Of a DNA stretch of 64,000 nt, positions 1-57,444 are shown piece after piece (within the stretch, counting starts at the first letter, position 1; every line of letters begins with the position of its first letter). Below the pieces are notes generated by a model. It saw only the letters and a list, made by a program, of their open reading frames with translations, was not told where the DNA came from and ran no database searches. A program made the position numbers and the translations under genes. Source of the stretch: an uncultured Candidatus Sumerlaeota bacterium (GTDB taxonomy: Bacteria > Sumerlaeota > Sumerlaeia > MVZB01 > JAJFLK01); assembly GCA_964598765.1 (NCBI GenBank), contig CAZRCZ010000001.1, positions 342,327-406,326 on the forward strand, written 5' to 3'.

Positions 1-3000
1 GGGATGCCCGTTCAGGGCGTTCGTCATGGTCAAGTTTCCCTAACCGAGGGCGTTGCCCTCGGCTACCATGAACCAGACCTTCGGCCTGTCGGATTGAAAC
101 GGGATTTCGATGCGAGGTCGAATTCTGAGACAGAAACGCGATGATCTGATCGAGCGTGCGGAGCTTGCCCATTTGGTCGGGCTGAATCGCGGGAGCGTCG
201 GGAAGTTTTTCCTGAACGGCGGAAAGGATCTCGACCCGCTTGATGGAGTCAATGCCGAGGTCGGATTCCAAATCCATGGAGAGGTTCAGCGTTTCGACCG
301 GATAACCGGTTTTTTCGCCGACGATTTCCAAGAGAAGCGTGGCGAAATCCGTTGAGGGAATTGAATCGGACGTTGTGCCATAGCGCTCTTCGGCTGTGGG
401 CTTGACAACTTCCAACATTGAGTCACGGGCGTCTTGTGCATGAATTGAAGGATTTGTTCCCGGAGCGATCGCAGACGGGACGCCTGCGCCATTTGTGTTG
501 ATAGCGGGCTTCATTCCCAACGCCTGCTCATAGAGTCCCTGCTGGCGGGTCATCAGTTCTTGCAAGGCGCGAAGAGAAGACTCTTGTCCTTCGAGAAATC
601 TGCGATGAATTTGCGTGGTTTGCTCTTGGAGCCTTTGAACCGCGACAAGATTTTCCTGAGCGGTCCTGAGGGCTTCGAGAAGGATTGGATTGGCGGTGGA
701 GTCGGAAAAGGATGGAAGGGGAGACGTTGAAACGGAAGGCGAAGCAGGCGCGGCGGGAAAGGTTTTCGGAGGAGGCGCGGGAGTATGGCGCTTGGGCGCT
801 TCCTGCGGCGAGAATTCGATTTTCGCGGGTTGGGGCGACATCGTGGTTTGGATTTCCTCCCTTGATTCGACAATGGCCGGAGCGCCGTTGCCGTTCTTCT
901 CGGCGGATGAAATTTTCTTTGGCGAAGCGGCGCGATACTGCGCTCCGCAAATTGAAACGGTCATGCGTGAATGTTTTTTGGGTTGAGCGTCGGATTGGGA
1001 CGATTCCGGTTCCCAGAGCCGGAGGTCAACCGGATGCCCTAGAGCGGCCAGTTGTGCCAGCGCGCGAGCGAAATCGGCGATGCCGTCGCCGCGACCCGAA
1101 CTCGCGTCCGCGGCAATGGCGTGATATTCCCGCTCGCCGAGAATTGCCTTGACCAATCCGGTCAGTTTCGCGCCCGGACCCACTTCGACGAACGTTCGCG
1201 CTCCATCTTCATACATTCGCTCGATTTCCGAACGGAAATTGACGGGATTGGCGAGTTGCGTCCCGAGTAGATCCCGCGCTTGATCGGCGTCATCCGGGTA
1301 TGTCTCATTTGTGGTGTTGGAATAAACCGGAATTTTTCCGGGTGAAATCTCGGCTTCGCGCAGGGCTTCGCGGAAGGGCGCTTGCGCCGAGGCGACCAGT
1401 GCGCTGTGAAACGCCGCCCCAACGGGTAGCGTCGCGCAAGTCAGTTTTCGCTTGCGGAAAATTTCAGCCGCTCGCTCGACCTTCGGCGTCGGACCGGATA
1501 AAACAATCTGCCTCGGAGCATTGAGATTGGCGACCGTCAATCCAAGCCGCTCCTCCTCGATCACCCGTACCGCCTCTTCAAGCGACGCTTGAACGGCGAT
1601 CATCGAACCCTTGTTGTCCGAAGCCTTGGCCATCAACTCGCCGCGAACCTTGGCCAGATGCAAGAGGGTCTTGGCGTCAATGCGACCGCCGGTAAATAGC
1701 GCCATCAATTCTCCGAAGCTGTGTCCCGCCGCCATGGCCGGATGCGCGCCGAACATCGTCAGAAGACAAACCATCCCCATGCTGATCGCGCCGATGGCGG
1801 GCTGGGCGACATGCGTGGCGCGGAGCGCAAGCTCGTTAAGTTTCTTGGCTTCCTCGCTGAACGTGGCGTGGGGTAAAATGAAATCGCTCAATTGGCAGGC
1901 CAAATCGGCGACGTCGCCGTAAGCGAGATCGGCTTGCGTGAGCGCCTCCTGCATTTTAGGGAAAAGACAAATCAAATCGCGAGCCATGCCGACGTATTGC
2001 GAGCCTTGGCCGGGGAAAAGAAACGCCAGCTTGCCCGGTTTGCGCGAGCGTCCGAAATAAGCTCCCTCGGGAAGCGACCACGAAACTTTTTCCTTCTCGC
2101 GCACCAACCGATCAAGCGCGCCCCCAAAAAGTTTTTTGAAATCCGCCTTGTCTTTTTCCAAGACCACGACAAGGCGATAAGGATGAAGACTCGAAAATTC
2201 GCGGCGCGACGCGGCGGCCATTCGGCAGGCCGAATCCCACGAATCCATCGCCGACCATCGGGCGATTTCAGTTTTCAAATCGTCCAGTGATTCGGCGGAC
2301 AGCGCGGCAATTTGAACCCGCCCATCCCAATCGGCCCCGCTTTTTTCGGAGCGAAATTCCTCCAACACCGCGTGGAAATTGCTTCCCCCGAATCCGAACG
2401 CGCTGACCGCGGCTCTGCGCGGATGCCCCTTGCGCGCGAGCCACGGCCGCTTTTCCGTGCTCACGTAAAAAGGAGTTTCCTTGTCCACCAGCGCCGGAGC
2501 GGGTTTGGAAACCTTGATCGTCGGCGGAAGAATCTTGTGATGCAACGCAAGAGCGATCTTGATGAGTCCCGCAACGCCGGCCGCCGCCTTGGTGTGGCCG
2601 ATTTGCGATTTGACCGAGCCGAGCGCGCACCAAACGCCCGATTCCCTCGCGGAGCGGTAAACTTTTTTCAGCGCGGAGACCTCGGCGGCGTCTCCCGCTT
2701 TGGTTCCCGTTCCGTGCGCCTCGACCAATTCAACCGTCGCGGGAGAAACTCCGGACAGACGATACGCCTGCTCCAAGGCGCGGACCTGCCCTTCCGCGCT
2801 CGGAGCGTAAATTGCCTTGCCCCGTCCGTCGGACGAAGTGCCGATCCCCTTGATGACGGCGTAAATTTTGTCGCCGTCGCGCTCGGCGTCCTTCAAACGT
2901 TTCAAGACCACCATTCCGATTCCTTCGCCGAGCATCGTTCCGTCGGCGTCGGCGTCGAACGGACGGATGTCGCCGGTCGGCGAAAGCGCGGGGGTCTTGC

Positions 3001-3766
3001 TGAAACACATGAACATGAAAACGTCGTTGAACGTGTCCGCGCCGCCGGTGACGACCATGTCGGATCGCCCCGATGCGAGTTCGAGCGTGGCCAGATGCGC
3101 GGCGCTGATCGAACTGGCGCACGCGGCGTCCACGACGCAATTCGTCCCGCCGAGATCGAGACGATTGGCAATCCGCCCCGCGACGACGTTGCCGAGCAAA
3201 CCGGGGAACGAACCTTCCTGCCATACGACATATTGATCGCCGATGCTCTTGACGATCTCGTCTGCGGGCTTGCCTTTAATTCCGTGGTCCTCGAGCGCGC
3301 GGCGCCAGATCGGATGGCCGAGCCGTCCGCCGAGAGCGATGGAAAGCTGAAGCGTTCCGGTGACGCCGAGGATCACGCCGACGCGCTCGCGGTTGAATTG
3401 GCGGTCCGCGCCGTATCCCGCGTCGGCCAGTGCGCCCTGCGCGACGATCAAACTCAAAATTTGCGAGGAATCGGTAGCCTCAAGCGTGTGGGGAGAAATG
3501 CCGAATTCGGTTGGATCGAAATCCACCGGCGAAAGAAATCCGCCGCGACGGCAATAGGTGTGGTCCGGTTTTTTGGGATCGGCGTCATAGTAATCGTCGG
3601 CGTTCCAATGCGAAGGAGGAACGTCGGAGACCGCATCCACGCCGCGCTTGATGTTGGACCAATACCCGCCAAGGCTCTGCGCCTTGGGAAAAAGGCAACT
3701 CATCCCGACGATGGCGATGGGAGTCGGACGGATTGTTTCTTCGGAGCTAATGGAGGTCTCCCTCAA
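1..3766 (-). CDS. pfaA: PfaA-like polyunsaturated-fatty-acid/polyketide synthase, N-terminal KS-AT-ACP portion (3' end lies beyond window start)
   Basis: Minus-strand frame is open from the window edge to ~3766 (absent from ORF track because it runs off the edge). Translation gives PIAIVGMSCLFP...YCRRGGFLSPVDFDPTEFGISP...DSSQILSLIVA (as at the PfaA N-terminus), KS motifs DAACASS (~3110-3130) and HGTGT, acyltransferase motif GHSFGEL (1707-1727), and ACP motif LGIDSIKRVEILS (~240-280). Start uncertain: TTG 3766 or ATG 3703. Confidence 0.8.
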   Translation of the reverse strand, partial: MRETSISSEETIRPTPIAIVGMSCLFPKAQSLGGYWSNIKRGVDAVSDVPPSHWNADDYYDADPKKPDHTYCRRGGFLSPVDFDPTEFGISPHTLEATDSSQILSLIVAQGALADAGYGADRQFNRERVGVILGVTGTLQLSIALGGRLGHPIWRRALEDHGIKGKPADEIVKSIGDQYVVWQEGSFPGLLGNVVAGRIANRLDLGGTNCVVDAACASSISAAHLATLELASGRSDMVVTGGADTFNDVFMFMCFSKTPALSPTGDIRPFDADADGTMLGEGIGMVVLKRLKDAERDGDKIYAVIKGIGTSSDGRGKAIYAPSAEGQVRALEQAYRLSGVSPATVELVEAHGTGTKAGDAAEVSALKKVYRSARESGVWCALGSVKSQIGHTKAAAGVAGLIKIALALHHKILPPTIKVSKPAPALVDKETPFYVSTEKRPWLARKGHPRRAAVSAFGFGGSNFHAVLEEFRSEKSGADWDGRVQIAALSAESLDDLKTEIARWSAMDSWDSACRMAAASRREFSSLHPYRLVVVLEKDKADFKKLFGGALDRLVREKEKVSWSLPEGAYFGRSRKPGKLAFLFPGQGSQYVGMARDLICLFPKMQEALTQADLAYGDVADLACQLSDFILPHATFSEEAKKLNELALRATHVAQPAIGAISMGMVCLLTMFGAHPAMAAGHSFGELMALFTGGRIDAKTLLHLAKVRGELMAKASDNKGSMIAVQASLEEAVRVIEEERLGLTVANLNAPRQIVLSGPTPKVERAAEIFRKRKLTCATLPVGAAFHSALVASAQAPFREALREAEISPGKIPVYSNTTNETYPDDADQARDLLGTQLANPVNFRSEIERMYEDGARTFVEVGPGAKLTGLVKAILGEREYHAIAADASSGRGDGIADFARALAQLAALGHPVDLRLWEPESSQSDAQPKKHSRMTVSICGAQYRAASPKKISSAEKNGNGAPAIVESREEIQTTMSPQPAKIEFSPQEAPKRHTPAPPPKTFPAAPASPSVSTSPLPSFSDSTANPILLEALRTAQENLVAVQRLQEQTTQIHRRFLEGQESSLRALQELMTRQQGLYEQALGMKPAINTNGAGVPSAIAPGTNPSIHAQDARDSMLEVVKPTAEERYGTTSDSIPSTDFATLLLEIVGEKTGYPVETLNLSMDLESDLGIDSIKRVEILSAVQEKLPDAPAIQPDQMGKLRTLDQIIAFLSQNSTSHRNPVSIRQAEGLVHGSRGQRPRLGKLDHDERPERAS

Positions 3767-3946
3767 TGACCGCGTCGCTCGATGAACCTTCGGATCGCGC
3801 CCATTCTGCAAAATAACCCCCCTCAAATCAATCCTTCATTTCATTCACTCTGGAATTTACATCCGCCGCTGATCGGCGTATCTTGAAAAAGGGATTCGGA
3901 CCGGAATGAAAAGGAATCCGGTCAACGGTCCCATGCTCCCGCTCCC

Positions 3947-6415
3947 GTGAATATCCAAATGGAACCCCTGACGCCCCCCGCATCTCCCGCGCCTCCAACC
4001 ACCGGTCTTGTCGGTCTGCCGGTCATCCCGCAGAAGGACCTCGTGGTCTTTCCCAACAGCGTCATGCCCCTTTTCATCATGCGGCACAAGGATTTGGCTT
4101 CGCTCGAAGCGGGATTGGCGATCAACAAGACGGTCTTTCTGGTCGCGCAACGTTCCCCCGCCGAGGATCATCCCGGTCCCAAGGACCTCTATCGCGTCGG
4201 CACGGCGGCGGACGTCATTCAAGTTTTGCGCCTGCCGGACGGCTCGGCCAAGGTGTTGGTCGAGGGAAATTGGGTCGGGCGCATCGAAACATTCTCCAAG
4301 GATTACGAGTATTTGCGCGGCGAGATTCGGCGGCTCGACTTTTTCGTCGAGGATTCCAAGGAACTTCAGGCGTTGAAACGGGGATTGCTCGGTTTGTTCG
4401 AGCAATACGCCCAGCTCTCCGACAAATTGCCCGAGGACCTTGCCCTCTCGATCAAAGCTCTCGAAGACCCGCTTCAACTCGCCAACGCGATCGCGAACTA
4501 TTGCCGTTTCCGAACCGAGGACAAGCAGAGGGTCCTTGAAGCGCAGGACGTCGCGGAGAAGCTTCAGCTTCTATCCCAACTTCTCGCCGCCGACAACGAA
4601 CTTCTAAAAATCGAAAACAACATTTTGTCGCAGGTCAAAAACAAAATTGGAAAAAGCCAGAAGGAGTATTTCCTCAACGAGCAACTCAAGGTGATCGAGA
4701 AGGAACTGGGGCTTGCCAACGAGGAAGACATCGAGCTGGACGAGCTACAGGACAAAATCAAGAAGGCGCGCATGGGGGAAGCGGGCAAGGAAAAGGCGTA
4801 TCGGGAATTGAACCGTCTGTCGAAAATGGCTCCGCTCAGCCCCGAAGCGACGGTCTGCCGGACTTATATCGAATGGCTGACCGAACTGCCGTGGGGCAAA
4901 TTCACGAAGGATCAAATTGACCTCAAGCGGGCGCAGGAAATTCTGGACGAGGACCACTTCGGATTGGAAAAACCGAAGGAGCGGATCATCGAATATCTGG
5001 CCGTGCATCGGCTCGTCGAAAAAATGCGGGGTCCGATTCTCTGCTTCGTTGGTCCGCCGGGCGTCGGGAAAACTTCGCTGGCCCGATCCATCGCGCGGTC
5101 GCTCCGCAGAAAATTCGTCCGCATTTCTCTGGGGGGCATCCGCGACGAAGCCGAAATCCGCGGACATCGGCGAACCTACATCGGTTCCCTTCCCGGCAAA
5201 ATCATGCAGTGGATGAAGAAGGCCGGCTCGATGAATCCGGTTTTTCTTTTGGACGAAGTGGACAAGATGAGCGCCGATTTTCGCGGCGATCCCGCTTCGG
5301 CTCTGCTTGAGGTTCTCGATCCCGAACAGAACAAAGCCTTCAACGATCATTACATCGAAGTTGACTTCGATCTGTCGCACGTCATGTTCATCACGACGGC
5401 CAACACCACGGCGGGTATTCCGTTTCCGTTGCTCGACCGCATGGAGATCATTCACGTTCCCGGCTACACCGAGGACGAAAAACGGATGATCGCGCTCCAA
5501 CACCTGATCGGCAAACAAACCAAGGCGCACGGGCTTTCCCGTCGTCAAATTGCGTTCCAGCCGGAGGCGATTGACACGATCATTCGCTCTTACACGCATG
5601 AAGCGGGCGTGCGGAATCTGGAGCGCGAGATCGCCGCGATTTGCCGAAAAGCCGCGCGCGACGTCGTCAACAATCCGGCGATTCACCAAATCACCGTTAC
5701 GCCCCAACTGGCGAAGGATTATCTGGGACCGATTCGATTCCAAGACATGGAATTACACGCCGTTCAGGAAATCGGCGTCGCCACCGGATTGGCTTGGACC
5801 GAAGTCGGCGGAGAAATTCTTCCCGTCGAAACGACGCTCATGGCGGGCAAGGGAGTCTTGCTCCTGACCGGAAAGTTGGGCGAGGTCATGCAGGAATCGG
5901 CCAAGGCGGCGCTCTCCTACATTCGCGCGCACTCCGCCGAGTTTGGCGTGGACAAGGACTTTTACAAGAAGCTCGACATTCACGTTCACGTCCCCGAAGG
6001 GGCGATTCCCAAAGACGGCCCTTCGGCGGGAATCACGATGGCGGTTTCGATGCTCTCCGCGTTGACGCGCCGTCCCGTTCGCCGGGACGTCGCCATGACG
6101 GGCGAAATTACCCTTCGCGGCCGGGTTCTTAAAATCGGCGGATTGAAGGAGAAATTGGTCGCCGCGCATCGCGCCCATCTGGAAACCGTGATCATCCCCG
6201 CCGACAACGAGCCCGAACTGGCGGAAATCGGCAAGGCAACACGCGAGGCGTTTCGGTTTGTTCCGGTCAAGACGATTGACGAGGTGATCGCCGTCGCCTT
6301 TGCGCCGCAGGAAGCGAAAAAGCAGCCGGAGGAAAAACCCGCGCTTCCCGAAATTCCGATGCTCAAACCGATTCGCATTCGCGGACGATCGCGCCGCATC
6401 TCCGCCCGGCTTTGA
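3947..6415 (+). CDS. lon: ATP-dependent Lon protease
   Basis: 822-aa ORF with Lon N-domain (LPVIPQKDLVVFPNSVMPLFI), Walker A VGPPGVGKTSLARSIARSL, and C-terminal protease domain (PKDGPSAGITMAVSMLSAL). ORF-track start 3947 is GTG; ATG at 3959 is an alternative. Confidence 0.93.
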   Translation: MNIQMEPLTPPASPAPPTTGLVGLPVIPQKDLVVFPNSVMPLFIMRHKDLASLEAGLAINKTVFLVAQRSPAEDHPGPKDLYRVGTAADVIQVLRLPDGSAKVLVEGNWVGRIETFSKDYEYLRGEIRRLDFFVEDSKELQALKRGLLGLFEQYAQLSDKLPEDLALSIKALEDPLQLANAIANYCRFRTEDKQRVLEAQDVAEKLQLLSQLLAADNELLKIENNILSQVKNKIGKSQKEYFLNEQLKVIEKELGLANEEDIELDELQDKIKKARMGEAGKEKAYRELNRLSKMAPLSPEATVCRTYIEWLTELPWGKFTKDQIDLKRAQEILDEDHFGLEKPKERIIEYLAVHRLVEKMRGPILCFVGPPGVGKTSLARSIARSLRRKFVRISLGGIRDEAEIRGHRRTYIGSLPGKIMQWMKKAGSMNPVFLLDEVDKMSADFRGDPASALLEVLDPEQNKAFNDHYIEVDFDLSHVMFITTANTTAGIPFPLLDRMEIIHVPGYTEDEKRMIALQHLIGKQTKAHGLSRRQIAFQPEAIDTIIRSYTHEAGVRNLEREIAAICRKAARDVVNNPAIHQITVTPQLAKDYLGPIRFQDMELHAVQEIGVATGLAWTEVGGEILPVETTLMAGKGVLLLTGKLGEVMQESAKAALSYIRAHSAEFGVDKDFYKKLDIHVHVPEGAIPKDGPSAGITMAVSMLSALTRRPVRRDVAMTGEITLRGRVLKIGGLKEKLVAAHRAHLETVIIPADNEPELAEIGKATREAFRFVPVKTIDEVIAVAFAPQEAKKQPEEKPALPEIPMLKPIRIRGRSRRISARL

Positions 6416-13042: not shown

Positions 13043-14485
13043 TCAACTACGCCCGAATCCTTTTCGGAGTTTCATCGCGGCGCGGACCAGAGACGATCCT
13101 TTAAGTGTTTTCATTTCCTTTTCCAGCCGCGCGAGTCCGGCGACCAGTTCCTGATTTTCGGCCATCAGCGAGGATTCTTCATTGCCGCGGCGCCAAAGCT
13201 CGGAGGGCGTCGCGCCTCCGACTCGCCGCCATTCGCGCAGATCTCCAGCGGATTGCGGATTGGAAGCCCAGCGCATGAGGGGACTGAGACATTTTTCCGG
13301 CGAGTATTCCTCCCGAAGATATTTTTGCGCGCCGAGCGTTTGCGCTCGGAACTTTTCGGGGCGTTCCGCGATTTGAACGATGGCGGATGCGACTGCCTCG
13401 GCGTCTGCTTGTTCAACGCCGACAACGTAATCTATCTCGGCCAAATCCAGCGTCAGCTCGCAACCGATGGTCGAGACCACGGGCAATCGCCCCATGATCC
13501 AATCCATGATGCGATTTCGCGTGCCGAGCCAACCTTCCGCCGAGGGGAGGTCCACGTTCAGTCCGAGATCACACTCCTGAATGATTCGGGGAACGCGACC
13601 CAGCGGAATCCAACCGAGCAGATGATAGCGATCTTTATTCGGCGATGAGGCGACGAGGGACTGAAACCGCGCGAACGATTTTTCGTTGTGGCCGGGGATC
13701 GCGCCGCCGGTGCAGGCGAACCGCAATTTGGGAAGGCGCCGCATTGCTATTTCCAGCGCGGCGAACAACGTCTCCACGTCGAGCCAAGTGTTGAAGCCTC
13801 CGGATTGAAAGACGAGGAAGGAATCGGCGGGCGCCGCAACGCCCCTCAAAAAAGGACCCGGCTCCGACGCGGGAGGAATCGGCTCAAGCCAAGGCGGAAC
13901 GAGATTGGCGAGTCGTTCGGCGGCGGTGTGCCGATTGAGCCGCCCCAGCGTCGCCATTTCCCCCAAGAGCGCCCCTACCTGAAACGTCGAACATCCCGAA
14001 ACTCGGTCGGCCCGGCGGAGCGCCGGAGCGAGGGTTTTCCATTGATCCGCTAATCCGTCGTCGCTCTCGTGCAGACGGGCGAGCATTTGCCGCTCGGCCA
14101 TCGGATCGCCGAAGTAATCGCACCAGAGAGGGATATCGGTTTCCATTTGCGCGAGTTCGCGGTTGACCAGATCGGTCGAGCCGATGGCGGCAACCGCGCC
14201 GAATTCACGGGCTTCATTGGCAAAAACTTCGGCGAGCTTGCGCCGTTGGAGATCAAGGACGCGAGGTTTAGGGAAATCGCAACCCGGAGACAAATCGAAC
14301 ACAAAAACTTTTTCGAGCGGCGCTCCCCAAAATTGAACCGTGGCCAAACGAAGGCGATGTCCCCGCGCCAGCAACTGCCGGGCGATTCCCCAAATCCGCA
14401 ATCCGGGCGCGAAGAGCCGGTCCGGATTTTCCGGCGGCAGGGGACCGACTCCGGCGCAAAAGATGGGAGGACGCGGCTCTTTCAT
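13043..14485 (-). CDS. Glycosyltransferase family 1/4-like protein with C-terminal coiled-coil tail
   Basis: 480-aa ORF; central region (LVFQSGGFNTWLDVETLFAAL...LLGWIPLGRVPRIIQECDLGLN) resembles GT-B C-terminal domain. Start taken at ATG 14485; assignment tentative. Confidence 0.45.
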   Translation of the reverse strand: MKEPRPPIFCAGVGPLPPENPDRLFAPGLRIWGIARQLLARGHRLRLATVQFWGAPLEKVFVFDLSPGCDFPKPRVLDLQRRKLAEVFANEAREFGAVAAIGSTDLVNRELAQMETDIPLWCDYFGDPMAERQMLARLHESDDGLADQWKTLAPALRRADRVSGCSTFQVGALLGEMATLGRLNRHTAAERLANLVPPWLEPIPPASEPGPFLRGVAAPADSFLVFQSGGFNTWLDVETLFAALEIAMRRLPKLRFACTGGAIPGHNEKSFARFQSLVASSPNKDRYHLLGWIPLGRVPRIIQECDLGLNVDLPSAEGWLGTRNRIMDWIMGRLPVVSTIGCELTLDLAEIDYVVGVEQADAEAVASAIVQIAERPEKFRAQTLGAQKYLREEYSPEKCLSPLMRWASNPQSAGDLREWRRVGGATPSELWRRGNEESSLMAENQELVAGLARLEKEMKTLKGSSLVRAAMKLRKGFGRS

Positions 14486-14611
14486 CCCCCCAGCTTGGAA
14501 CGATCCCGCGCAAGGCTCAAATCTTTTTTTTGTCACGGATTTTGCGGATTAAACAGATTATGTTTCGAAAAGTCCAAGGCAATATCTGTGTAATCCGCGA
14601 AATCCGCGACT

Positions 14612-21862: not shown

Positions 21863-22339
21863 TTGGGTGGAGATACTCAAATCCTAAAAGTGGACACGGT
21901 CAGCGCGAAAAAACGCTCATGGATAATGGCTCAGATAAAATCGGCCGGGAATGAATCAACCGAGGGGCGTCTGGCAAAGCAGTTCCGTAACCACGCAATC
22001 AAGGGTTGGAGGAGAAAATCCAAGCTACTTGGCAAACCGGATTTTGTATTTCGTCGCGCTCGCGTTGCCGTTTTCGTGGATGGATGCTTCTGGCATGGAT
22101 GTCCCACCCATTGCAGATTGCCCACTACGCGACGGGCTTATTGGACGAACAAAATTGCCAAAAACATGCGGCGAGACAGAAATATCCGTGCGGCTCTCAG
22201 GCGTGGCGGGTGGACGGTATGGCGCTTTTGGGAGCATGAAATTCGCTCACCCTCAGTAGAAGAAAAACTTCGAGGATTAAGGCGAACAATTCGAGTCAGG
22301 TCGAAAAAGATGAATCCTCGAGTCGGTCGTCAAGAATGA
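21863..22339 (+). CDS. vsr: Very-short-patch-repair endonuclease (Vsr)
   Basis: Motifs KRSWIMAQIKS, GKPDFVF, AVFVDGCFWHGC, WTVWRFWEHE match Vsr. ORF-track start is TTG; GTG 21890 or ATG 21922 possible. Confidence 0.8.
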   Translation: MGGDTQILKVDTVSAKKRSWIMAQIKSAGNESTEGRLAKQFRNHAIKGWRRKSKLLGKPDFVFRRARVAVFVDGCFWHGCPTHCRLPTTRRAYWTNKIAKNMRRDRNIRAALRRGGWTVWRFWEHEIRSPSVEEKLRGLRRTIRVRSKKMNPRVGRQE

Positions 22340-25610: not shown

Positions 25611-27047
25611 TTACTTCACTCGCGGCTCCATTTGAAACGCCCTCGCGCGAAACAAAAATTCCACGATGTTCCCCTCGTGCGGTTGCATCCAGTCGAGTTT
25701 GATCGTCGGGATCGGACCGAGGTTGAGACGGTCAATGTGAACGGCATCGGTCAATTCGCGCCGAAACTTCGCATCAGCGGTGATCGCAGAGCAAACCAGC
25801 GTCGGTCCCATTGCTTCAATCATCTTCTCTTGCGGGCATTGAACGATCGAGACAAACGGAAACATATATTCTTTCTTGGCGATGGAGGCTTCGGGCGAAT
25901 CGCAATGAGCGACGACGGGGCGCAGATACGCGCATCGTTCTTGCTCCACGAGGCGCGGACCGAATTTTTCCGTCGAGTGCTCGACGCCGTTCTCTCTCAA
26001 ATCGGCGTCAATCATCTTCCAAACCGCCTGCGCCTGTCCCGGAACGGTGAACGCGGCGAGTCCCGCGGCCGGGTCTTCGGGGGGCTTGACGTCAACCGGT
26101 CCGAGCCGCTCGGCGAGCGCGCTGGCGATTTCGCGCGTGTGGCGCGACGCCCAAACGCCCGAACAATTGATGCACCCGCGCCCGCTGTTCAGATAAACGC
26201 TGCCGGCCATCACGTCGAGGTATTTTTCCCAATGATCCGCGGCATCGTCGCCAAGGATGATCTTGCTGAAGCCGGGCCCATGCGCCTGAACGCGGGGATT
26301 GCCCTTATACATTTCCACCGTTTGCGATCCGCCGAAAATCAAGCTTCGGTCGCACGCAGACAGCACCGCCGCGCCGACCTCGCCGCCGCCGGGATAAATC
26401 GAAATCGCCTCGCGCGGAATCCCCGCCTCAAAAAACGCCGATGCCATCCGATAGGGGGTCCACGGCTCCTGCGGTCCCGGTTTCAGGACCAATCCGACCT
26501 GCATTGGAATAATCGGAAGCCAGAGCGTATGCACTCCGGGGGAATTGGAAGGGAGGACGAGGCCGACGACGGGCGATTGCGCCTGAAAGCTGACGATGAC
26601 TTCTCCCGCCGAGCGTTTTTCGACGCCGTAGCCCCGGCTCAAAACCTCAAGCTCAAGCCCGCGCGTCAAGGCGTCCAACATCTCCCCCATGCGCGAGAGA
26701 ACAAAATGATTCTTCTGCATGTTTGCCTTGCACATGTGCTCAGGAAGCCCCGTCGAGGCCGATTGGGCGTGGGCGAATTCGTCGGGAGTTTGAGTTCCGT
26801 CGCCGAGGGGTAGCGTCGCACTGAAATAGAGGTCCGCCGCCTTCTTCACGCGGGCGATCAATTCGGCGCAGGGGATTTCGCGCAGGGCGTCGCGCGCCGC
26901 TTGCGCCTTGCGCATGTCGCGCTGGACGATCCCGCCGTTGGCTTGACTCACCTTGGCGATCGGCTCGCCGGTGATGAAATGCGCGACGGTGTCGGTTTCG
27001 AGGGATTGATACGGTTTGCCCCATCGCAGGGCGGGGATATTGAGCAT
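25611..27047 (-). CDS. Aldehyde dehydrogenase superfamily protein
   Basis: 478-aa ORF with ALDH-like architecture and candidate catalytic Cys region [10 protein letters not shown]; specific subfamily not assignable. Confidence 0.6.
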
Positions 27048-27289
27048 CGAAGCTTCCTTCCAAATACGGAATCGCCAGAATCACCCGCAAATTAGCACGG
27101 TTGGGAATTGGATGAGAAGATTTATTGACGGCGACCCTCGGATTGGGGATGATAGTGGGCTTGGCGGGAGGGGGGAAGAGTTCAAGGTCGCGTCCTACTT
27201 AGGCGACGGCTTGAATGCTTCCGCCCGAAATTTCATCTCGCGCATGGCAAGAAGACCGGGGCGCGACCCGGCAAAGGGAGGAAACTTTG

Positions 27290-27522
27290 TGAGTTTGGTC
27301 CACGTTGACTCAGACGAACCGATTGACCGGGCGTTGAGGCGATTCAAGAAGGAATGTCAAAAATCGGGTATTCTGGCGGAATTACGCCGCCGGGAGTATT
27401 ACGAAAAGCCGAGCGTCCGCAAAAAACGGAAGATGGAAGCCGCCCGCCGAAAACTCCGTCGGCGGCTGATGAAGATTCAACGCAAATTCGACGAAACTCC
27501 CCAACCCGGACGCCGACGCTAA
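27290..27522 (+). CDS. rpsU: 30S ribosomal protein S21
   Basis: [45 protein letters not shown] is typical S21. GTG start at 27290 with GGGAGG RBS 7 nt upstream; the longer ORF-track form (from 27016) is an N-terminal extension. Confidence 0.85.
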
Positions 27523-30275: not shown

Positions 30276-30485
30276 GGGGAATCGGTCTCCGCTCAAAGGA
30301 GAGAGGAAGGCACATTACCATTCTAGGAACGGATGTGAAAGTGAGATGTCTTAAATATTAAATCTGCAAGGACCACTGTCGGCGCGATGCTGGTGCCGAC
30401 CGTTCATCTTGTCATGGAGTCGCTACCGGTTTTGGTCATGATCAATCCGTGCTTCTCCGCGTGCAACTGTGTCCAAATTTCCAAC

Positions 30486-30926
30486 CTAAGCCTTGGAATT
30501 CAAAATCTCGACAACCCTTACCGTAAAATTCAAATCTTCTCCCGCCATCGGATGGTTGGCGTCCAGAACGATCCGGTCCTTGCCGACGTGCGCGATGATG
30601 ACAGGCATGAACGCGCCGTTGAGCAGGCGGATTTGAAAGCGTTGCCCGACTTCGACCGGAAGCCCTTCGGGAATTTCATGCGGCTCGGCGGCGAGAATCC
30701 ACTCCTGCCGATGCGGACCGAACGCCTGATCGGAGGAAATCTTGAATTTCTTGGATTGCCCCTTCGCCATGCCGACGATGGCGTGTTCGAATGCCGGAAG
30801 AAATTTTCCCTGACCGAGCGTGAACTGCAACGGCTCACGCCCTTCGGTGCTGTCGAAGACCGCGCCGTCGTTCAGCGTCCCCATGTAGTGAATCTTGACG
30901 GTGTCGCCCTGTTTGACTTGCGCCAT
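30486..30926 (-). CDS. FKBP-type peptidyl-prolyl cis-trans isomerase
   Basis: MAQVKQGDTVKIHYMGTLNDGAVFDSTEGREPLQFTLGQGKFLPAFEHAIVGM is a typical FKBP domain. ATG at 30926. Confidence 0.8.
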   Translation of the reverse strand: MAQVKQGDTVKIHYMGTLNDGAVFDSTEGREPLQFTLGQGKFLPAFEHAIVGMAKGQSKKFKISSDQAFGPHRQEWILAAEPHEIPEGLPVEVGQRFQIRLLNGAFMPVIIAHVGKDRIVLDANHPMAGEDLNFTVRVVEILNSKA

Positions 30927-31080
30927 GGTGTCGGTATCGTGTCCTCGTCCGCCGTTTATGGCGGAATCTTTAACTGAACCGCATTCGCGGTTCAAACCCA
31001 ACCCCAAATCCTAACCATGAGGCAAACCCCTTTTCCAGAGGATATTTTACGCGGAACGTTGATTTGATTTTTTGCCACCC

Positions 31081-32938: not shown

Positions 32939-33454
32939 ATGAGCAACGCCCCCACCGCCCCATCTCTCGACGCCGAGACCGGCTGGAAACCCTTCAACCA
33001 CACCGCTTGGCTGGAGCGGCCCAATTATGTCTCCGGCGATCCGGACGGCAACCGGCTCCGCATCCGCTATTATTACCGCGAGTCGGACATGGCGCTGGTC
33101 GGCAAGGCGTGGTTCGGTCCGGGAACCGAGGGTCCTCCCGGCCATGCGCACGGCGGAAGCATGGCCGCGCTCTTGGACGAGGCGATGGGCACGGCCTCGT
33201 GGATTTCCGGCCATCTCGTCCTCGCCGCGAAGATCGAAGTCAATTTCCGCAAGAAACTCCCGCTCGGCACGGTCGTCAAGGTCGAGGCATGGCTGGAAAA
33301 AGTGAATGGGCGGAAGGTTTTCGTCCGGGGCCAATTGATCGGCCTGGACGATCTGATTTATGCGGAAAGCTCCGGTCTCTTCATCAAACTGGAACCCGAG
33401 CAATTCGGCCAGTTGGGGACTTGGATGGTGCGGAGCACGAAGCCGCGGGAGTGA
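32939..33454 (+). CDS. PaaI-family (hotdog-fold) thioesterase
   Basis: GPGTEGPPGHAHGGSMAALLDEAMG motif of 4HBT/PaaI thioesterases. Confidence 0.7.
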   Translation: MSNAPTAPSLDAETGWKPFNHTAWLERPNYVSGDPDGNRLRIRYYYRESDMALVGKAWFGPGTEGPPGHAHGGSMAALLDEAMGTASWISGHLVLAAKIEVNFRKKLPLGTVVKVEAWLEKVNGRKVFVRGQLIGLDDLIYAESSGLFIKLEPEQFGQLGTWMVRSTKPRE

Positions 33455-33461
33455 TTGACGA

Positions 33462-34625
33462 ATGAAACTCAACCCTTACCCTGCCCTCTCTCTCGGAAAG
33501 GGAGAGGGTTTGCATGGGCAAAAATCCACCCGAGCCGCGACCGTGAGGGAGCGCCCAGCCCGCGAAATTCTTGTTTTCGGGCGCTCCCTCACGGTCGCGG
33601 CTCTGATGTTGCAGTTCTTCTTTTTCTTTGCTCGCGCCGCTGAAATCGCGCTCCATCCCGGGCATCACGAAATCACGTTCAAGAACGGCAAGACCGCCCA
33701 AGGGGAAATTCTGGCCGTCGAAGGGGAAAAATTTCGCTTCCAGCCCTACGAGGGGTCCGCGTTTGTCCTTCCGTTGGATCGAATCCAAACCGCCCGTGCG
33801 CTTTCGCCGGCGGAAGGCGTGCTTTTTCAATCGCGCCAGATGGCGGAGAAGGGAAAGCTCGATGAAGCCGTGCGATTATTGACGCGGAGCGCCGGGATGG
33901 AGGGAGGAGCCGCGCTGGAAGGGGAGCTGATGAGGCGGCTGAACGAATTGAATCGCCTGATAAAAGCGTCGCAGAAAAAAGAATTGGCGGAATTCGAGAA
34001 AAAATTCGAGGAATTACTGGACCGCAATCAACTTCACGACGCGCTCGATCTGGCGAGGCAAACGCTCAAGGATCATCCCGACGATCCCGACCTGCTCGGC
34101 GACGCCGCGCTGGCGGAATTTCGGATTCATCGCGGGCAAGGGGGGATCGCGAGCGAGTTTCGCTCGTTCCATTTGGATCGTTTGAAAAAAGCCGATCCGC
34201 AATCGCCAATCCTGCTCGGGATTCAAGCGGAAATGGGGGTCTCGGAGAAGCTTCAGGCCAAATGGGAATCCGACCGTAAGGCGTTCTTGGCGACCGCCTT
34301 GGACGATGCGGCGCGCTTTTACGAGAATTTCCAACTTCAAGAAGCCAAGGACATCCTCGACAAGGCGCTGGCGCTCGATCCGCCCGATGATCTGCTTGGT
34401 CCGCTGAAGGAACTGGCGGCCAAAGTGGACGCCGAAATTGCCGGCGGGTCCAAGGATCAGGCGCTACGGGAACGCGAACGCCTCCGCGCGCTCGAAGAAA
34501 AAACAAAGATGGAAGGGGAGTCGTCGGGCAAATCGCTGAGTGAATCCGAATCCAAGAAACTGGATAAAAAGCGCGCCCGCAGAATTCAGCAACGCGCGAT
34601 TGACCAAAGCCGTGGACCGAGATGA
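33462..34625 (+). CDS. Hypothetical exported coiled-coil / TPR-like protein
   Basis: 387-aa ORF, hydrophobic N-terminal segment, helical repeat-like C-terminus. True start may be ATG 33606 because 33532-33603 forms a perfect hairpin. Confidence 0.4.
   Translation: MKLNPYPALSLGKGEGLHGQKSTRAATVRERPAREILVFGRSLTVAALMLQFFFFFARAAEIALHPGHHEITFKNGKTAQGEILAVEGEKFRFQPYEGSAFVLPLDRIQTARALSPAEGVLFQSRQMAEKGKLDEAVRLLTRSAGMEGGAALEGELMRRLNELNRLIKASQKKELAEFEKKFEELLDRNQLHDALDLARQTLKDHPDDPDLLGDAALAEFRIHRGQGGIASEFRSFHLDRLKKADPQSPILLGIQAEMGVSEKLQAKWESDRKAFLATALDDAARFYENFQLQEAKDILDKALALDPPDDLLGPLKELAAKVDAEIAGGSKDQALRERERLRALEEKTKMEGESSGKSLSESESKKLDKKRARRIQQRAIDQSRGPR
33532..33603. repeat. Perfect 25-bp inverted repeat (hairpin)
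   Basis: gagccgcgaccgtgagggagcgccc ... gggcgctccctcacggtcgcggctc with 22-nt loop; located 78 nt after the PaaI stop. Confidence 0.85.
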
Positions 34626-35316: not shown

Positions 35317-37419
<2,103 letters not shown>

Positions 37420-37571
37420 GTTTCTTTCCACTCTTTCATTTTTCGCGCAATTCTAACTTTGGCTCCAAATGGGGCGCGACCCAAACGGATGCCGGCGCGC
37501 TACGACACAACGCGAATTTACTTCTCCGCGTCGCGCGGGCGTGCTCCATTCAAAAACATTATACCATTATT

Positions 37572-38048
37572 TTACCATCCGTAGTGCGCGAAGGCCTTGT
37601 TGGCCTCGGCCATGCGGTGGGTATCCTCGCGCTTTTTGATCGCCCCGCCGGTTTTGTTGTAGGCGTCGAGGAGTTCTCCGGCCAGACGCTCGGCCATCGT
37701 CTTCTCGCCCCGTTCGCGGGCGGCCTCACGTAACCACCGGAACGAAAGCGCCTCCCGTCTCGGTGGCGAGACTTCGACCGGAATCTGATAGTTAGCCCCG
37801 CCGACGCGCCGCGATTTCACTTCGACGGTCGGTTTGACGTTTTCAATGGCCTGATTAAAAACCTCAATCGGCTTGACGTCGGCGACTTTCTCGCCGATCC
37901 GATCCAGCGCGGTGTAGAAAATCCGCTGGGCCAGCGACTTCTTCCCCTCATACATGATGCAATTGATGAACTTGGAGGCCAGCGCGCTCCCGCATCTGGC
38001 GTCGGGGATGATTTCCCGCTTTTTGGTTTTTCGTTCTTTCCGACTCAT
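37572..38048 (-). CDS. rpsG: 30S ribosomal protein S7
   Basis: 158-aa, typical S7 sequence ([21 protein letters not shown]...). Confidence 0.95.
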
Positions 38049-38067
38049 ACGATCATTCCCTCATTGC

Positions 38068-38442
38068 TCAAGCTTTGGGCTTCTTCGCGCCGTATTTGGA
38101 CCGGCTTTTCTTTCGGTTGGCCACTCCTTGGGTGTCCAAAACGCCCCGCAGGATGTGGTAGCGGATGCCGGGCAGATCCTTGACGCGCCCTCCGCGAATC
38201 AGCACGATCGAGTGCTCTTGAAGGTTGTGCCCCTCCCCCGGAATATAGGCCGTGACCTCGTGGCCGTTGGTCAGCCTCACGCGAGCCACCTTGCGCAGGG
38301 CCGAATTCGGCTTCTTCGGCGTCTGAGTGTAAACTCTCAGGCATACCCCCCGTTTTTGCGGACAGGCGGCGAGGGCGGGAACCTTGTTTTTCTTGCGAAT
38401 GGGAACCCGTCCCTTGCGAATTAGTTGATTGATCGTCGGCAT
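38068..38442 (-). CDS. rpsL: 30S ribosomal protein S12
   Basis: [12 protein letters not shown]...[37 protein letters not shown]; start at internal ATG 38442 of the longer ORF-track entry. Confidence 0.95.
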
Positions 38443-38582
38443 CGAACCTCTCTCTGTTGGCTGGATTCCCCCGGTTTTGTTCTCCAAGGGAATTCCAAAC
38501 CCTTGATTCAACCAGCTTTGATTGCGGGAGTCAAGGGGGGATAGCGTTTTTTTTCTGCTGGGATGGGTATCAAAATTCGGAG

Positions 38583-38624
38583 CCACAACCGAGCAGTGAC
38601 CGCACGGTCGCGGCTCGGTTGTGG
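38583..38624 (-). terminator. Hairpin immediately downstream of hemA stop
   Basis: Perfect 12-bp stem ccacaaccgagc / gctcggttgtgg with 18-nt loop, directly after the hemA stop codon. Confidence 0.5.
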
Positions 38625-38629
38625 TTTCA

Positions 38630-39946
38630 TTAATCCCCGCGATGATGATTTTTCAATTCCTGCATCGAAAGATGAAGGAGCCGTTGTTTGAGGCGGTGTT
38701 GCGCGGCGCGGATTTTTTCGCGGGACGATTCGGACAGATCGCGTTCCATGTCCGTTTGGATTTCGTCAAAAACCTCGTCGAAATGTTTTTTCAAACGCTC
38801 CAGCGCCGGGGCGAGCGAAACCGCCTGAAGCTTGGATCGAAATTTTTCGATCTCCTGCTCGATTAACTCCCACGCTTTCTGCGCGGCGGCGGTCCGTTTG
38901 GCTCGATTCTCGGCGATGATTCCTTCGAGATGGCTGATGTCCAAGAGCGTGACGCCGGGGATGGATCCGATGGCGTGGTCCAGAATGCGCGGGACCGCCG
39001 CGTCAATGAGGCAGACCCGGCGATTTTCGGACCCGGGACCGCGAAGGCTCTCGAACATCGCGCGCGTGACAAGAAAATTCGGCGCGAAAGCCGCGCCGAG
39101 AATCAGATCGGCCTGACGGATCGCGGGAGCCATTTGCGGAATCGGCACGATTTCGGCGTTCAGTCCGCGCGCGACCTCCTGAGCCTTTTCCACCGTGCGG
39201 TTCACGATCAGCAACTTGGCGGGACGACGCTCGGCGATGGCTTCGGCGGCGACGCGCCCGACTTTCCCCGCGCCGATGACGACGCAAACTTTTCCCTCGA
39301 ATGATCCAAGAATTTGCTCGGCGCGGAGCGTCGCGGCCTTGGCGACGGAAAGCGTGCCGACGTTCAAATCGGTTTCGGTCCGGATGCGTTTGGAGCATCG
39401 GTTGGCCGCTTCGATGAGACGATGCAAGTTTGCTCCGGCCATGCCCGTCTGTTTGCTCATTTCATACGCCTGCCCGACCTGCGATTTGATCTCGTTTTCG
39501 CCGAGGATCATCGAATCCAATCCGGCCTCGACCGCGAAGAAATGGCGGACGGCTTCGAGGTCTTCATAATTGTAGAGCGGCGGAACGTGATCCGGCTCCA
39601 ATTTCCCTCCAGCGAGCGAGAGAAAAAATTCGCGCAAGGTTTCGATGAAATTTTCCTCCAGCGGACTATAGACGTAAATTTCGGTTCGATTGCAGGTCGA
39701 AAGAACCAAGGCCTCCCCGGCGAGTCCCTCGTTCCGCAGGCGTTCCAGCGTTTGTAGGCATCGTTCCGGCGCGAGCGCGAATTTCTCGCGGACGCCGATG
39801 GCCGCGCGATCTTGGTTCACGCCGCACACAAAAAGGGTCGAGGTGGATGTGGTCGGGACGGAGTGTGTCTCTCGATCCTTCACGCGCAAATCCTCTCCCT
39901 CGCCCGGCTGTATGGACTTCGCGGAATGTTGAGTCGGTCGGGATCT
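38630..39946 (-). CDS. hemA: Glutamyl-tRNA reductase
   Basis: [20 protein letters not shown]...[14 protein letters not shown] and NADPH-binding domain. ATG 39946 overlaps stop of upstream hemY-like gene (ATGA). Confidence 0.9.
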
Positions 39947-41394: not shown

Positions 41395-41404
41395 GTTTGA
41401 GTCC

Positions 41405-43898: not shown

Positions 43899-44150
43899 GA
43901 TACGATCGCGGCCAAGGGAGAAGCGGGTCTGCCAAAAGCTCCTTCCCCCTAGGCACACACTTCCATCATGCCCGTCGCGCCGAATCGCGGTCAAGCGAGA
44001 AGGAACGAACGGCGATATCGCGGGAGTAATCATGGCGTTGAAAGCGGGCCTTTGACCGAAGCGCCTGCCTCACTCTCTACAACCTGTTCAAGAGTTGAAC
44101 TGAAACCGGGAAAACGCCAATATGATTTCGAGAAGCTCGCAAGACAAGGC

Positions 44151-54031: not shown

Positions 54032-54113
54032 TTCACCACAGAGACGCAGAGGTACAGAGAAATACTTGGACGCTTTTCACTTCTTCTCTGTGTCTCCTTG
54101 CCTCTGTGGTGAA
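54032..54113. repeat. Imperfect palindrome of tandem CACAGAG units
   Basis: Arms ttcaccacagagacgcagaggtacagagaa and ttctctgtgtctccttgcctctgtggtgaa; immediately upstream of the sugar-binding-protein start. Confidence 0.85.
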
Positions 54114-57371: not shown

Positions 57372-57444
57372 CCCTCTCTCACGCTTTAATTGCTCTGGAA
57401 TCGTGCAGAAAATCTCTGAAATCCGCAAGGGAGTTGGCAGAGGG

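What the first reader, a model, noticed from the sequence alone, without database searches (positions are those of the whole stretch)
1..3766. PfaA-like PUFA/polyketide synthase with a long low-complexity and coiled-coil linker between AT and ACP
KS and AT domains are canonical and the ACP carries the PUFA-synthase-type LGIDSIKRVEILS motif. Between AT and ACP there are ~200 residues of Pro/Ser/Ala-rich low complexity and a predicted helical segment (ANPILLEALRTAQENLVAVQRLQEQTTQIHRRFLEGQ). Only one ACP is visible before the window edge. The gene is divergent from lon; the rest of the cluster lies outside the window.
Basis: partly seen in the sequence, partly recalled or inferred. Interest (0 to 1): 0.55.

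Follow-up and report, generated by a model that had tools for sequence, protein, structure and literature searches.

The report
Ordinary PfaA-type lipid synthase gene fragment
This is the first ~1,255 codons of an ordinary PfaA-type (polyunsaturated fatty acid synthase-like) gene cut off by the window edge, and its long linker with a helical segment is a normal feature of the whole enzyme family.

Summary
Window 1-3766 (minus strand) encodes KS, AT, a ~220-residue linker and one ACP, and the ORF is still open at base 1. lon is divergent.

The PfaA reading also holds. The truncated protein already exceeds NCBIfam's PfaA cut-off (TIGR02813, 1066 vs 1010 bits). Its 120 best homologues are ~2,100-2,200-aa KS-AT-ACP(2-4)-KR-DH proteins. 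Where context was visible, they sit beside pfaD, a fused pfaBC and often oleABC(D).

The linker is not unusual. All 120 homologues carry the same helix (LH-x2-FL-x2-Q core; H1054, L1058 and Q1061 invariant). Shewanella PfaA and a cyanobacterial homologue carry two tandem copies. The AT-to-ACP distance (314 aa) lies within the family range of 225-345.

AlphaFold2 models one 56-residue helix (pLDDT ~95) between disordered spacers. It shows heptad periodicity, so a dimerising or docking coiled coil is likely, but that is inferred. No Pfam family or solved structure covers it.

The rest of the gene and its partners could not be recovered, and none lies in the window. The host is probably related to Sumerlaeota, where PUFA-type KS domains are already reported.

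Verdict: new member of a known kind, low interest.

The parts
1..3766 (-). 5' part (1,255 codons) of a pfaA-like gene. The ORF is open at base 1. The start may be TTG 3766, 3811 or 3826.
   Evidence: Translation. TIGR02813 1066 bits against cut-off 1010. Start candidates and ribosome-binding site. Logan gene call. Homologue N-termini.
2510..3721 (-). Ketosynthase domain (aa 16-419), with C216, H351 and H391.
   Evidence: Pfam PF00109 and PF02801. Motif positions.
2168..2482 (-). KS-AT interdomain linker (aa 429-533).
   Evidence: Pfam PF16197 KAsynt_C_assoc, 38.7 bits.
1139..2023 (-). Malonyl-type acyltransferase domain (aa 582-876), with S683, R708 and the AAFHS motif.
   Evidence: Pfam PF00698, E 1.6e-34. 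TIGR00128 fabD-like, 205 bits. Motifs.
1010..1138 (-). Post-AT linker (aa 877-919).
   Evidence: Lies between the Pfam AT end and the start of the low-complexity stretch. Aligned to PKS KS-AT structures up to about aa 915-921. The boundaries are approximate.
689..1009 (-). Disordered spacer 1 (aa 920-1026), rich in Ser, Pro and Ala.
   Evidence: Composition S 17%, P 16%, A 13%. Variable in length and sequence among homologues. AlphaFold2 pLDDT 64-72 for the modelled end.
521..688 (-). Conserved 56-residue amphipathic heptad helix (aa 1027-1082) with invariant H1054, L1058 and Q1061. Probably a coiled-coil dimerisation or docking element.
   Evidence: Present in 120 of 120 homologues. Invariant columns. 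Periodicity peak at 3.5 residues. AlphaFold2 gives a single helix at pLDDT 94-96. No Pfam family and no PDB sequence match.
347..520 (-). Disordered spacer 2 (aa 1083-1140).
   Evidence: AlphaFold2 pLDDT about 50. Unalignable and length-variable among homologues.
131..334 (-). First acyl carrier protein domain (aa 1145-1212). The phosphopantetheine-bearing serine S1174 is at nt 245-247, within DLGIDSIKRVEILS.
   Evidence: Pfam PF00550. AlphaFold2 four-helix bundle at pLDDT above 90. The motif is identical to Shewanella PfaA ACPs.
2..127 (-). 42 residues after ACP1 (aa 1214-1255). Probably an inter-ACP linker, cut by the window edge. Contains an 11-nt inverted repeat at 41-65.
   Evidence: Frames and comparison with homologues' inter-ACP linkers. 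Inverted repeat. Codon-position GC is atypical but uninformative.
3947..6415 (+). Divergently transcribed lon protease gene. It is a neighbour, not part of the synthase.
   Evidence: Pfam Lon_C, LON_substr_bdg, AAA and Lon_lid. 100% identical to database protein P0121.

Best explanation
The region is the N-terminal ~57% of subunit A (PfaA) of an iterative type I FAS/PKS 'PUFA-synthase-like' secondary-lipid synthase. It belongs to the clade found in Geobacter, Desulfuromonadales, Gemmataceae, Elusimicrobiota and many uncultured bacteria, which is 'Type I' in Shulse & Allen 2011.

Shown here:
- An intact KS with its Cys-His-His residues.
- A malonyl-type AT.
- One PUFA-type ACP.
- A tether between AT and ACP made of a disordered spacer, a conserved 56-residue heptad helix and a second disordered spacer.

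Inferred from homologues:
- The missing part holds one to three more ACPs, then KR and a PKS-type DH. These may be on the same polypeptide or on a separate KR-DH protein.
- The enzyme works with a PfaD enoyl reductase, a fused PfaBC (KS-CLF-AT-2xFabA) and an Sfp-type phosphopantetheinyl transferase encoded elsewhere.
- The AT loads malonyl units on the ACPs. The KS elongates the chain iteratively. The product is a long polyunsaturated acyl chain. In most relatives this chain is probably handed to adjacent OleABCD enzymes to make a polyolefin hydrocarbon.

Inferred from anatomy:
- The helix cannot be stable alone. It most likely pairs with its twin in the KS-mediated homodimer, or with a partner subunit. 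That would anchor the flexible ACP array near the catalytic core, while the spacers give the ACPs reach.
For: Family:
- TIGR02813 scores above its cut-off.
- Pfam domain order.
- The 120 best homologues are 47-66% identical, about 2,100-2,200 aa, and carry KS, AT, PP-binding, KR and PS-DH. They have 2-4 ACPs.

Context in relatives:
- In the closest relative, P0001 (66% identity), a KS-CLF-AT-FabA gene starts 17 nt after pfaA.
- L029 reads PfaD (TIGR02814, 636 bits, cut-off 449), pfaA, pfaBC, an OleA-like gene, an OleB-like gene and an olefin beta-lactone synthetase-like gene.
- The same order occurs in L002, L030/L031 and L033.
- L032 adds oleBCD and a phosphopantetheinyl transferase.
- Shulse & Allen (PMC3098273) define this cluster type and link it to olefin synthesis.

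Helix:
- Conserved in 120 of 120 homologues.
- Invariant H, L and Q; Pro at most 2% in any column across aa 1034-1075 in 121 sequences; periodicity peak at 3.5 residues.
- AlphaFold2 single helix at pLDDT about 95, flanked by segments at pLDDT about 50.
- Present at the same position in Shewanella PfaA and Moorena, in two copies.
- A profile of the helix hits only 597 of 1.84 billion representatives, at about position 1000 of 2,000-2,300-aa proteins or in fragments.
Against: - Nothing beyond ACP1 is visible, and the source contig could not be extended.
- No pfaD, pfaBC, ole or phosphopantetheinyl transferase gene lies anywhere in the 64-kb window.
- pfaD sits directly upstream of pfaA in nearly all relatives, but not here and not in the closest relative. 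Gene order in this sub-lineage therefore differs.
- No product has been determined for this clade in the papers read.
- Helix pairing is untested. Only a monomer model could be made.
Confidence: 0.82

Rival explanations
1. It is a split-type PfaA. The polypeptide would hold only KS-AT-ACP(n) and end shortly beyond the window edge, with KR-DH encoded by a separate downstream gene.
For: Two relatives have exactly this arrangement. L032 has a 1,449-aa KS-AT-ACP protein followed by a 777-aa KR-DH protein. L033 has 1,422 aa followed by 786 aa. Shulse & Allen describe a split pfaA in their Type H.
Against: Most homologues, and the closest one, are single KS-AT-ACP-KR-DH proteins. The ORF is still open at base 1. 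The splits seen elsewhere may be frameshifts in repetitive ACP DNA: the two genes in L033 overlap by 20 nt.
Confidence: 0.12
2. It is one module of a standard modular type I PKS or PKS/NRPS hybrid that makes a secondary metabolite, not a PUFA-synthase-like lipid synthase.
For: The KS-AT didomain matches DEBS, CurL and MAS structures at E about 1e-100. PUFA-like genes do occur inside hybrid PKS-NRPS clusters (PMC13291983).
Against: - The PfaA model is the top NCBIfam hit by far and is above its cut-off, while the modular-PKS models are far below theirs.
- The ACP motif is identical to the PUFA-synthase ACP motif.
- The family-specific pre-ACP helix is present.
- None of the relatives examined has NRPS or extra PKS modules.
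Confidence: 0.03
3. It is a PfaA homologue, but the product is another secondary lipid rather than a PUFA or polyolefin precursor. Examples are a heterocyst-glycolipid-like or hydroxylated very-long-chain alkyl chain, or a phenolic-lipid precursor.
For: The family makes diverse products. The product of this clade is uncharacterised in the papers read. No ole genes are visible here. L002 has an extra methyltransferase-like (LCM) gene in its cluster.
Against: Identity to the cyanobacterial homologues is lower (44-46%) than to the pfaD-pfaA-pfaBC-ole clade (47-66%). FabA-type dehydratase/isomerase domains, which introduce cis double bonds, are present in the relatives' pfaBC genes. ole genes are adjacent in five of the relative clusters examined.
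Confidence: 0.15
4. The conserved helix is not a homodimerising coiled coil. It would instead be a docking site for another subunit (PfaBC, PfaD or the phosphopantetheinyl transferase), or it packs back onto KS-AT.
For: Strictly conserved polar residues (H1054, Q1061, T1050, Q1075) fall on or next to the hydrophobic seam. That is unusual for a simple structural coiled coil. Some lineages have two tandem copies, which could pair with each other.
Against: None directly. The tools allowed only a monomer model and returned no contact information.
Confidence: 0.35

Closest known systems
PfaA of marine gammaproteobacterial EPA/DHA synthases (Shewanella, Photobacterium, Moritella); NCBIfam TIGR02813
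   Same: - KS-AT-linker-ACP order.
- Identical DLGIDSIKRVEIL ACP motif.
- A long (>300 aa) stretch between AT and the first ACP holding the LH-x2-FL helix.
- The family model scores above its cut-off.
   Different: - Only 39-46% identity.
- Shewanella has two tandem helix copies and five ACPs. This clade has one helix and usually 2-4 ACPs.
- Partners in this clade are a fused pfaBC rather than separate pfaB and pfaC.
'Type I' secondary-lipid synthase cluster of Shulse & Allen 2011 (Geobacter, Desulfuromonas, Pelobacter, Gemmata): pfaD, pfaA, fused pfaBC, often next to oleABCD
   Same: The best full-coverage homologues come from exactly these taxa, at 50-54% identity. The architecture and helix are the same. 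The closest relative also has pfaBC directly downstream.
   Different: pfaD is not upstream here; lon is. Partner and ole genes are not visible. The host is probably related to Sumerlaeota rather than Desulfuromonadota or Planctomycetota.
HglE-type heterocyst glycolipid synthases of cyanobacteria
   Same: KS-AT-helix-ACP(n)-KR layout and the same ACP motif.
   Different: Lower identity (44-46%). Two diverged helix copies (HxQYL). Cyanobacterial host and different partner genes.
Intramodule dimerisation element of modular PKSs (Pfam PKS_DE) and coiled-coil docking domains. This comparison is recalled from general knowledge of PKS structure.
   Same: A short helical element that follows the KS-AT part of a homodimeric synthase and is flanked by flexible linkers. 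It may work the same way.
   Different: No sequence relationship was detected. Pfam finds no family on aa 918-1085 at E <= 0.1. Here the model shows one 56-residue helix rather than a two-helix element. It precedes an ACP array rather than a KR.

Membership tests
PfaA (PUFA-synthase subunit A) family, TIGR02813 | Whole-protein score above the curated family cut-off | tested here: met
   1066.4 bits against a cut-off of 1010.1, although only 1,255 of about 2,150 residues are present. The alignment runs from query 12-1078 to model 4-1075.
PfaA (PUFA-synthase subunit A) family, TIGR02813 | N-terminal KS with Cys-His-His, followed by a malonyl-specific AT | tested here: met
   Pfam domains. C216, H351, H391; S683, R708, AAFHS.
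PfaA (PUFA-synthase subunit A) family, TIGR02813 | Tandem ACP domains (two or more) carrying the LGIDSIKRVEIL motif | tested here: inconclusive
   One ACP with the exact motif is present. The window ends 42 residues later. Homologues have 2-4 ACPs.
PfaA (PUFA-synthase subunit A) family, TIGR02813 | C-terminal KR and PKS-type DH | not testable with these tools
   These lie beyond base 1. The source contig was not retrievable. They are present in nearly all homologues.
PUFA-synthase-like gene cluster (pfaA with pfaB/C, pfaD, pfaE) | Partner genes encoding KS-CLF-DH(FabA), a PfaD enoyl reductase and an Sfp-type phosphopantetheinyl transferase in the same genome | not testable with these tools
   None lies in the 64-kb window. 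Partner genes are present next to pfaA in every relative examined.
Conserved pre-ACP helix of PfaA/HglE-type synthases (an element defined here, not a curated family) | About 55-residue proline-free heptad helix with an LH-x2-[FY]L-x2-Q core, lying between AT and the first ACP | tested here: met
   Window aa 1027-1082. The profile finds 597 representatives.
Modular-PKS dimerisation element (Pfam PKS_DE) | Sequence match to the Pfam model | tested here: not met
   No Pfam family hits aa 918-1085 at E <= 0.1.
Modular type I PKS module (for example DEBS-like) | Best match to modular-PKS family models, and a multi-module or NRPS context | tested here: not met
   Modular-PKS NCBIfam models are far below their cut-offs, for example PKS_plus_SDR at 601 against 1740. 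Relatives show no extra modules.

The most novel reading that the evidence does not exclude
The 56-residue heptad helix with invariant His, Leu and Gln, which precedes the ACP array, could be an undescribed structural element common to all PfaA/HglE-type synthases. It would act as a dimerisation or subunit-docking coiled coil that positions the tandem ACPs. It is present once in this clade and twice in Shewanella and cyanobacteria. No Pfam model or solved structure covers it, and the PUFA-synthase papers I read do not mention it. The novelty would belong to the family, not to this locus.
Probability: 0.4. Interest if true: 0.4.

Novelty: new member of a known kind. Interest (0 to 1): 0.15.

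Why it matters
It adds one more, incomplete, PfaA homologue from a poorly studied lineage that is probably related to Sumerlaeota. PUFA-type KS domains have already been reported for that phylum (PMC7472256).

The one point of wider use concerns the whole family. PfaA-type synthases carry a strongly conserved, unannotated helix ahead of their ACP array. If it is a dimerisation or docking element, it bears on how these synthases assemble and on efforts to engineer them for omega-3 production. This window offers no special access to that question.

Tried and rejected
Extending the gene past base 1 failed by four routes:
- A scan of 185,579 species genomes found only relatives at 66% identity or less.
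- A scan of JGI metagenome contigs found relatives at 57% or less.
- A protein search with ACP1 plus the unique tail found no identical fragment.
- The neighbouring Lon is 100% identical to a protein recorded on a 454,576-bp NCBI contig. Only a 4,955-bp Logan contig (SRR12313479) could be fetched, and it stops 71 codons into pfaA. A cluster look-up gave no accession or name.

Neither a full nor a partial copy of this PfaA is in the protein collection, although its neighbour is. The contig may therefore end in the repetitive ACP region. This is conjecture.

Other negative results:
- Solved structures: none matches the helix by sequence.
- Pfam on the linker: nothing.
- Rfam on the whole window: nothing.
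- Tandem DNA repeats in the gene: none of note.
- Literature: searches for a described AT-ACP helix or coiled coil in PfaA found nothing relevant.

Considered and left open: a frameshift or gene end in the last 125 nt. An inverted repeat lies at 41-65, and a possible RBS+ATG lies near base 27 in another frame. The codon-position GC there is explained by amino-acid composition.

A fold search was not run, because a single helix plus an ACP would not be informative.
Full report
**What is there**

The minus-strand frame from window base 3766 to base 1 is open for 1,255 codons. ORF listing omits it only because it runs off the window.

Pfam places these domains:
- ketoacyl-synt at residues 16-294 and Ketoacyl-synt_C at 302-419;
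- the KS-AT linker family KAsynt_C_assoc at 429-533;
- Acyl_transf_1 at 582-876;
- PP-binding at 1145-1212.

The catalytic residues are all present:
- KS: C216, H351 and H391.
- AT: GQGSQ, S683 in GHSFGE, R708 and a malonyl-type AAFHS motif.
- ACP: S1174 in DLGIDSIKRVEILS.

That ACP motif is letter-for-letter the one in all five ACPs of a Shewanella PfaA and in a Moorena homologue. lon (Lon_C, LON_substr_bdg, AAA, Lon_lid) lies on the plus strand at 3947/3959-6415, so the two genes are divergent.

Two small corrections apply:
- The start codon is uncertain. TTG 3811 has a strong GAGGGGGG ribosome-binding site. A public gene call on an identical contig uses TTG 3826. Homologue N-termini fit 3766 best.
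- Only the first of the two spacers is clearly Ser/Pro/Ala-rich.

**Family**

NCBIfam's PfaA model TIGR02813 scores 1066 bits against a curated cut-off of 1010, although less than 60% of a full-length protein is present. Its alignment runs without a break from residue 12 to 1078, that is, through the helical segment. Modular-PKS models fall far below their cut-offs.

The 120 best database homologues are 47-66% identical and mostly 2,100-2,200 residues long. They carry KS, AT, PP-binding, KR and PS-DH, with two to four ACPs. The named ones come from Geobacter, Pelotalea, Desulfuromonadales, Trichloromonadaceae, Gemmataceae, Elusimicrobiota and others.

[quoted passage not shown] They define it by a fused pfaBC and tentatively link it to polyolefin synthesis (PMC3098273).

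**Context in relatives**

- The closest relative is P0001, 66% identical over KS-AT. Its architecture is KS-AT-helix-2xACP-KR-DH. A gene for KS-CLF-AT-FabA starts 17 nt downstream and is cut by the contig end.
- L029 (Elusimicrobia; 60% identical) reads in this order:
  - PfaD (TIGR02814, 636 bits, cut-off 449);
  - pfaA;
  - pfaBC (KS-CLF, a PfaB-like AT, two FabA domains);
  - a KAS-III/thiolase-like gene (OleA-like);
  - a haloalkane-dehalogenase-like hydrolase (OleB-like);
  - an olefin beta-lactone synthetase-like ligase (OleC-like).
- The same order recurs in L002/L003, L030/L031 and L033.
- L032 adds oleBCD and an Sfp-type phosphopantetheinyl transferase next to pfaD and pfaA.
- In L032 and L033 pfaA is split into KS-AT-ACP and KR-DH genes. 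A split version cannot be excluded here.

A tblastn of PfaD, PfaBC, OleA-D and the transferase against all fetched loci and the window gave two results:
- pfaD lies directly upstream of pfaA in nearly all relatives, but not in the window or in the closest relative.
- None of these genes occurs anywhere in the 64-kb window.

Pfam scans of the other ORFs found only housekeeping genes.

**The linker**

The stretch between AT and ACP1 has four parts:
- the post-AT linker (to about residue 919);
- spacer 1 (920-1026; S 17%, P 16%, A 13%);
- a helix (1027-1082);
- spacer 2 (1083-1140).

It is not distinctive.
- A BLAST of the helix region against the 120 homologues finds it in all 120.
- An alignment of 31 diverse members shows H1054, L1058 and Q1061 invariant, and L1033, Q1044, T1050, L1053, F1057, L1071 and Q1075 at least 90% conserved. 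The spacers on both sides are unalignable and vary in length.
- Measured the same way, the distance from the FVEVGP motif at the end of AT to the ACP serine is 314 residues here. The family range is 225-345 with a median of 277, and the closest relative has 345.
- Canonical Shewanella PfaA has an even longer AT-to-ACP stretch, with two tandem copies of the element (…ATLHQQFLAIPQQ… and …LQSHTQFLTLQAQ…). A Moorena HglE-like protein also has two copies.

**What the helix is likely to be**

- Across 121 sequences, no column between 1034 and 1075 has more than 2% proline. Mean hydropathy shows a sustained 3-4-3-4 spacing, with the strongest periodicity at 3.5 residues (amplitude 1.01, against 0.93 at 3.6 and at most 0.5 elsewhere).
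- AlphaFold2, run with the 31-sequence alignment, models residues 1027-1082 as one uninterrupted helix at pLDDT 94-96. The flanks are at about 50 and ACP1 is above 90.
- A 56-residue Leu/Gln/Ala-rich helix between disordered tethers should not be stable on its own. Type I FAS/PKS KS domains are homodimeric, which is established knowledge. The simplest reading is therefore a coiled coil pairing the two chains, or a docking site for a partner subunit. It would anchor the ACP array near the catalytic core while the spacers provide reach.
- This step is inference. Only a monomer model was possible, and no contact data are returned.

**How well the helix is annotated**

- No Pfam family covers residues 918-1085 at E <= 0.1, so it is not the modular-PKS dimerisation element by sequence.
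- No PDB chain matches it.
- A profile of the helix alone finds 597 of 1.84 billion representative proteins (285 at E <= 1e-10). The matches sit near residue 1000 of 2,000-2,300-residue proteins or in fragments. The element is therefore family-specific.
- The PUFA-synthase papers I could read do not mention it. They treat PfaA-MAT as ending near residue 960 and the first ACP as starting near 1269 in Shewanella baltica.

**Source and limits**

- The neighbouring Lon is 100% identical to a database protein recorded on a 454,576-bp NCBI contig and in a Logan assembly of SRR12313479. More distant Lon relatives (58-66% identical) that carry names are from Sumerlaeota/BRC1. The host is probably related to that phylum.
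- PUFA-type KS domains have already been reported from Sumerlaeota MAGs (PMC7472256).
- The genome is absent from the species-genome and JGI collections. Only a 4,955-bp Logan contig was retrievable. No identical PfaA fragment exists in the protein collection.
- The number of ACPs, the KR-DH end and the partner genes of this particular locus therefore remain unseen.
- The 42 residues after ACP1 resemble the polar inter-ACP linker of the closest relative. An 11-nt inverted repeat lies at 41-65. Nothing decisive can be said about the last 125 nt.

**Verdict**

This is a correctly recognised but ordinary PfaA-type gene fragment: a new member of a known family from an under-sampled lineage. The 'long low-complexity and coiled-coil linker' is the family norm. 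The only mildly interesting by-product is that this family-wide pre-ACP helix appears to be unannotated and uncharacterised. Interest is low.

Noticed in passing
L029:8463-26228; L030/L031; L002:8328-26423; L033; L032:2972-16782: In relatives, the pfaD-pfaA-pfaBC genes are directly followed by OleA-, OleB- and OleC-like genes. In L032 they are instead preceded by OleB-, OleC- and OleD-like genes plus an Sfp-type phosphopantetheinyl transferase. This supports the proposed link between this pfa clade and polyolefin hydrocarbon synthesis.
   Followed up: partly
L007 (Shewanella metallivivens PfaA aa ~1058-1156); L009 (Moorena aa ~1304-1411): Canonical PfaA and a cyanobacterial HglE-like protein carry two tandem copies of the LH-x2-[FY]L helix. 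The window's clade carries one copy.
   Followed up: partly
L032:10001-16782; L033:3013-9622: pfaA is split into a KS-AT-ACP gene and a KR-DH gene in two relatives. In L033 the two genes overlap by 20 nt, which may indicate a frameshift or an assembly error in the ACP repeats.
   Followed up: no
window 1-3826 compared with database protein P0121 (Lon, window 3959-6415): Lon is in the protein collection at 100% identity, recorded on a 454,576-bp NCBI contig. Neither a full nor a partial copy of the adjacent PfaA is present. The source contig may end in the ACP repeat region at the window start.
   Followed up: partly
window 41-65: An 11-nt inverted repeat (TAACCGAGGGC / GCCCTCGGCTA, 3-nt loop) lies inside the ORF tail after ACP1. 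An RBS-like AGGGAAA plus an ATG follows near base 27 in another frame. Its significance is unknown.
   Followed up: partly
window 38630-44033 (- strand): A haem biosynthesis gene block: glutamyl-tRNA reductase, a protoporphyrinogen-oxidase-like amine oxidase, a HemN-like radical SAM enzyme and uroporphyrinogen decarboxylase. The first two ORFs overlap by about 190 nt as listed, probably because of start-codon choice.
   Followed up: no
window 49156-53061 (- strand): A 1,301-aa protein with DUF7133, a glucose/sorbosone-dehydrogenase-like domain and HEAT repeats. An M1 peptidase with HEAT repeats lies at 54696-57461.
   Followed up: no
window 35317-38586 (- strand): The ribosomal S12, S7 and EF-G (rpsL-rpsG-fusA) operon. 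No RNA family reached its gathering threshold anywhere in the window (Rfam).
   Followed up: no
window 27016-27522 (+ strand): The ribosomal protein S21 domain occupies only residues 95-148 of a 168-aa ORF. Either the real start is internal or there is an N-terminal extension.
   Followed up: no
window 21863-22339 (+ strand); 32939-33454 (+ strand); 59943-61280 (+ strand): A Vsr-like mismatch endonuclease, a 4HBT hotdog thioesterase and biotin carboxylase (accC). The thioesterase is about 29 kb from pfaA and there is no evidence linking the two.
   Followed up: no
window 13043-14536 (-), 33462-34625 (+), 48318-49142 (-), 54077-54766 (-), 30387-30977 (+): Several sizeable ORFs (196-497 aa) have no Pfam match at the thresholds used.
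   Followed up: no
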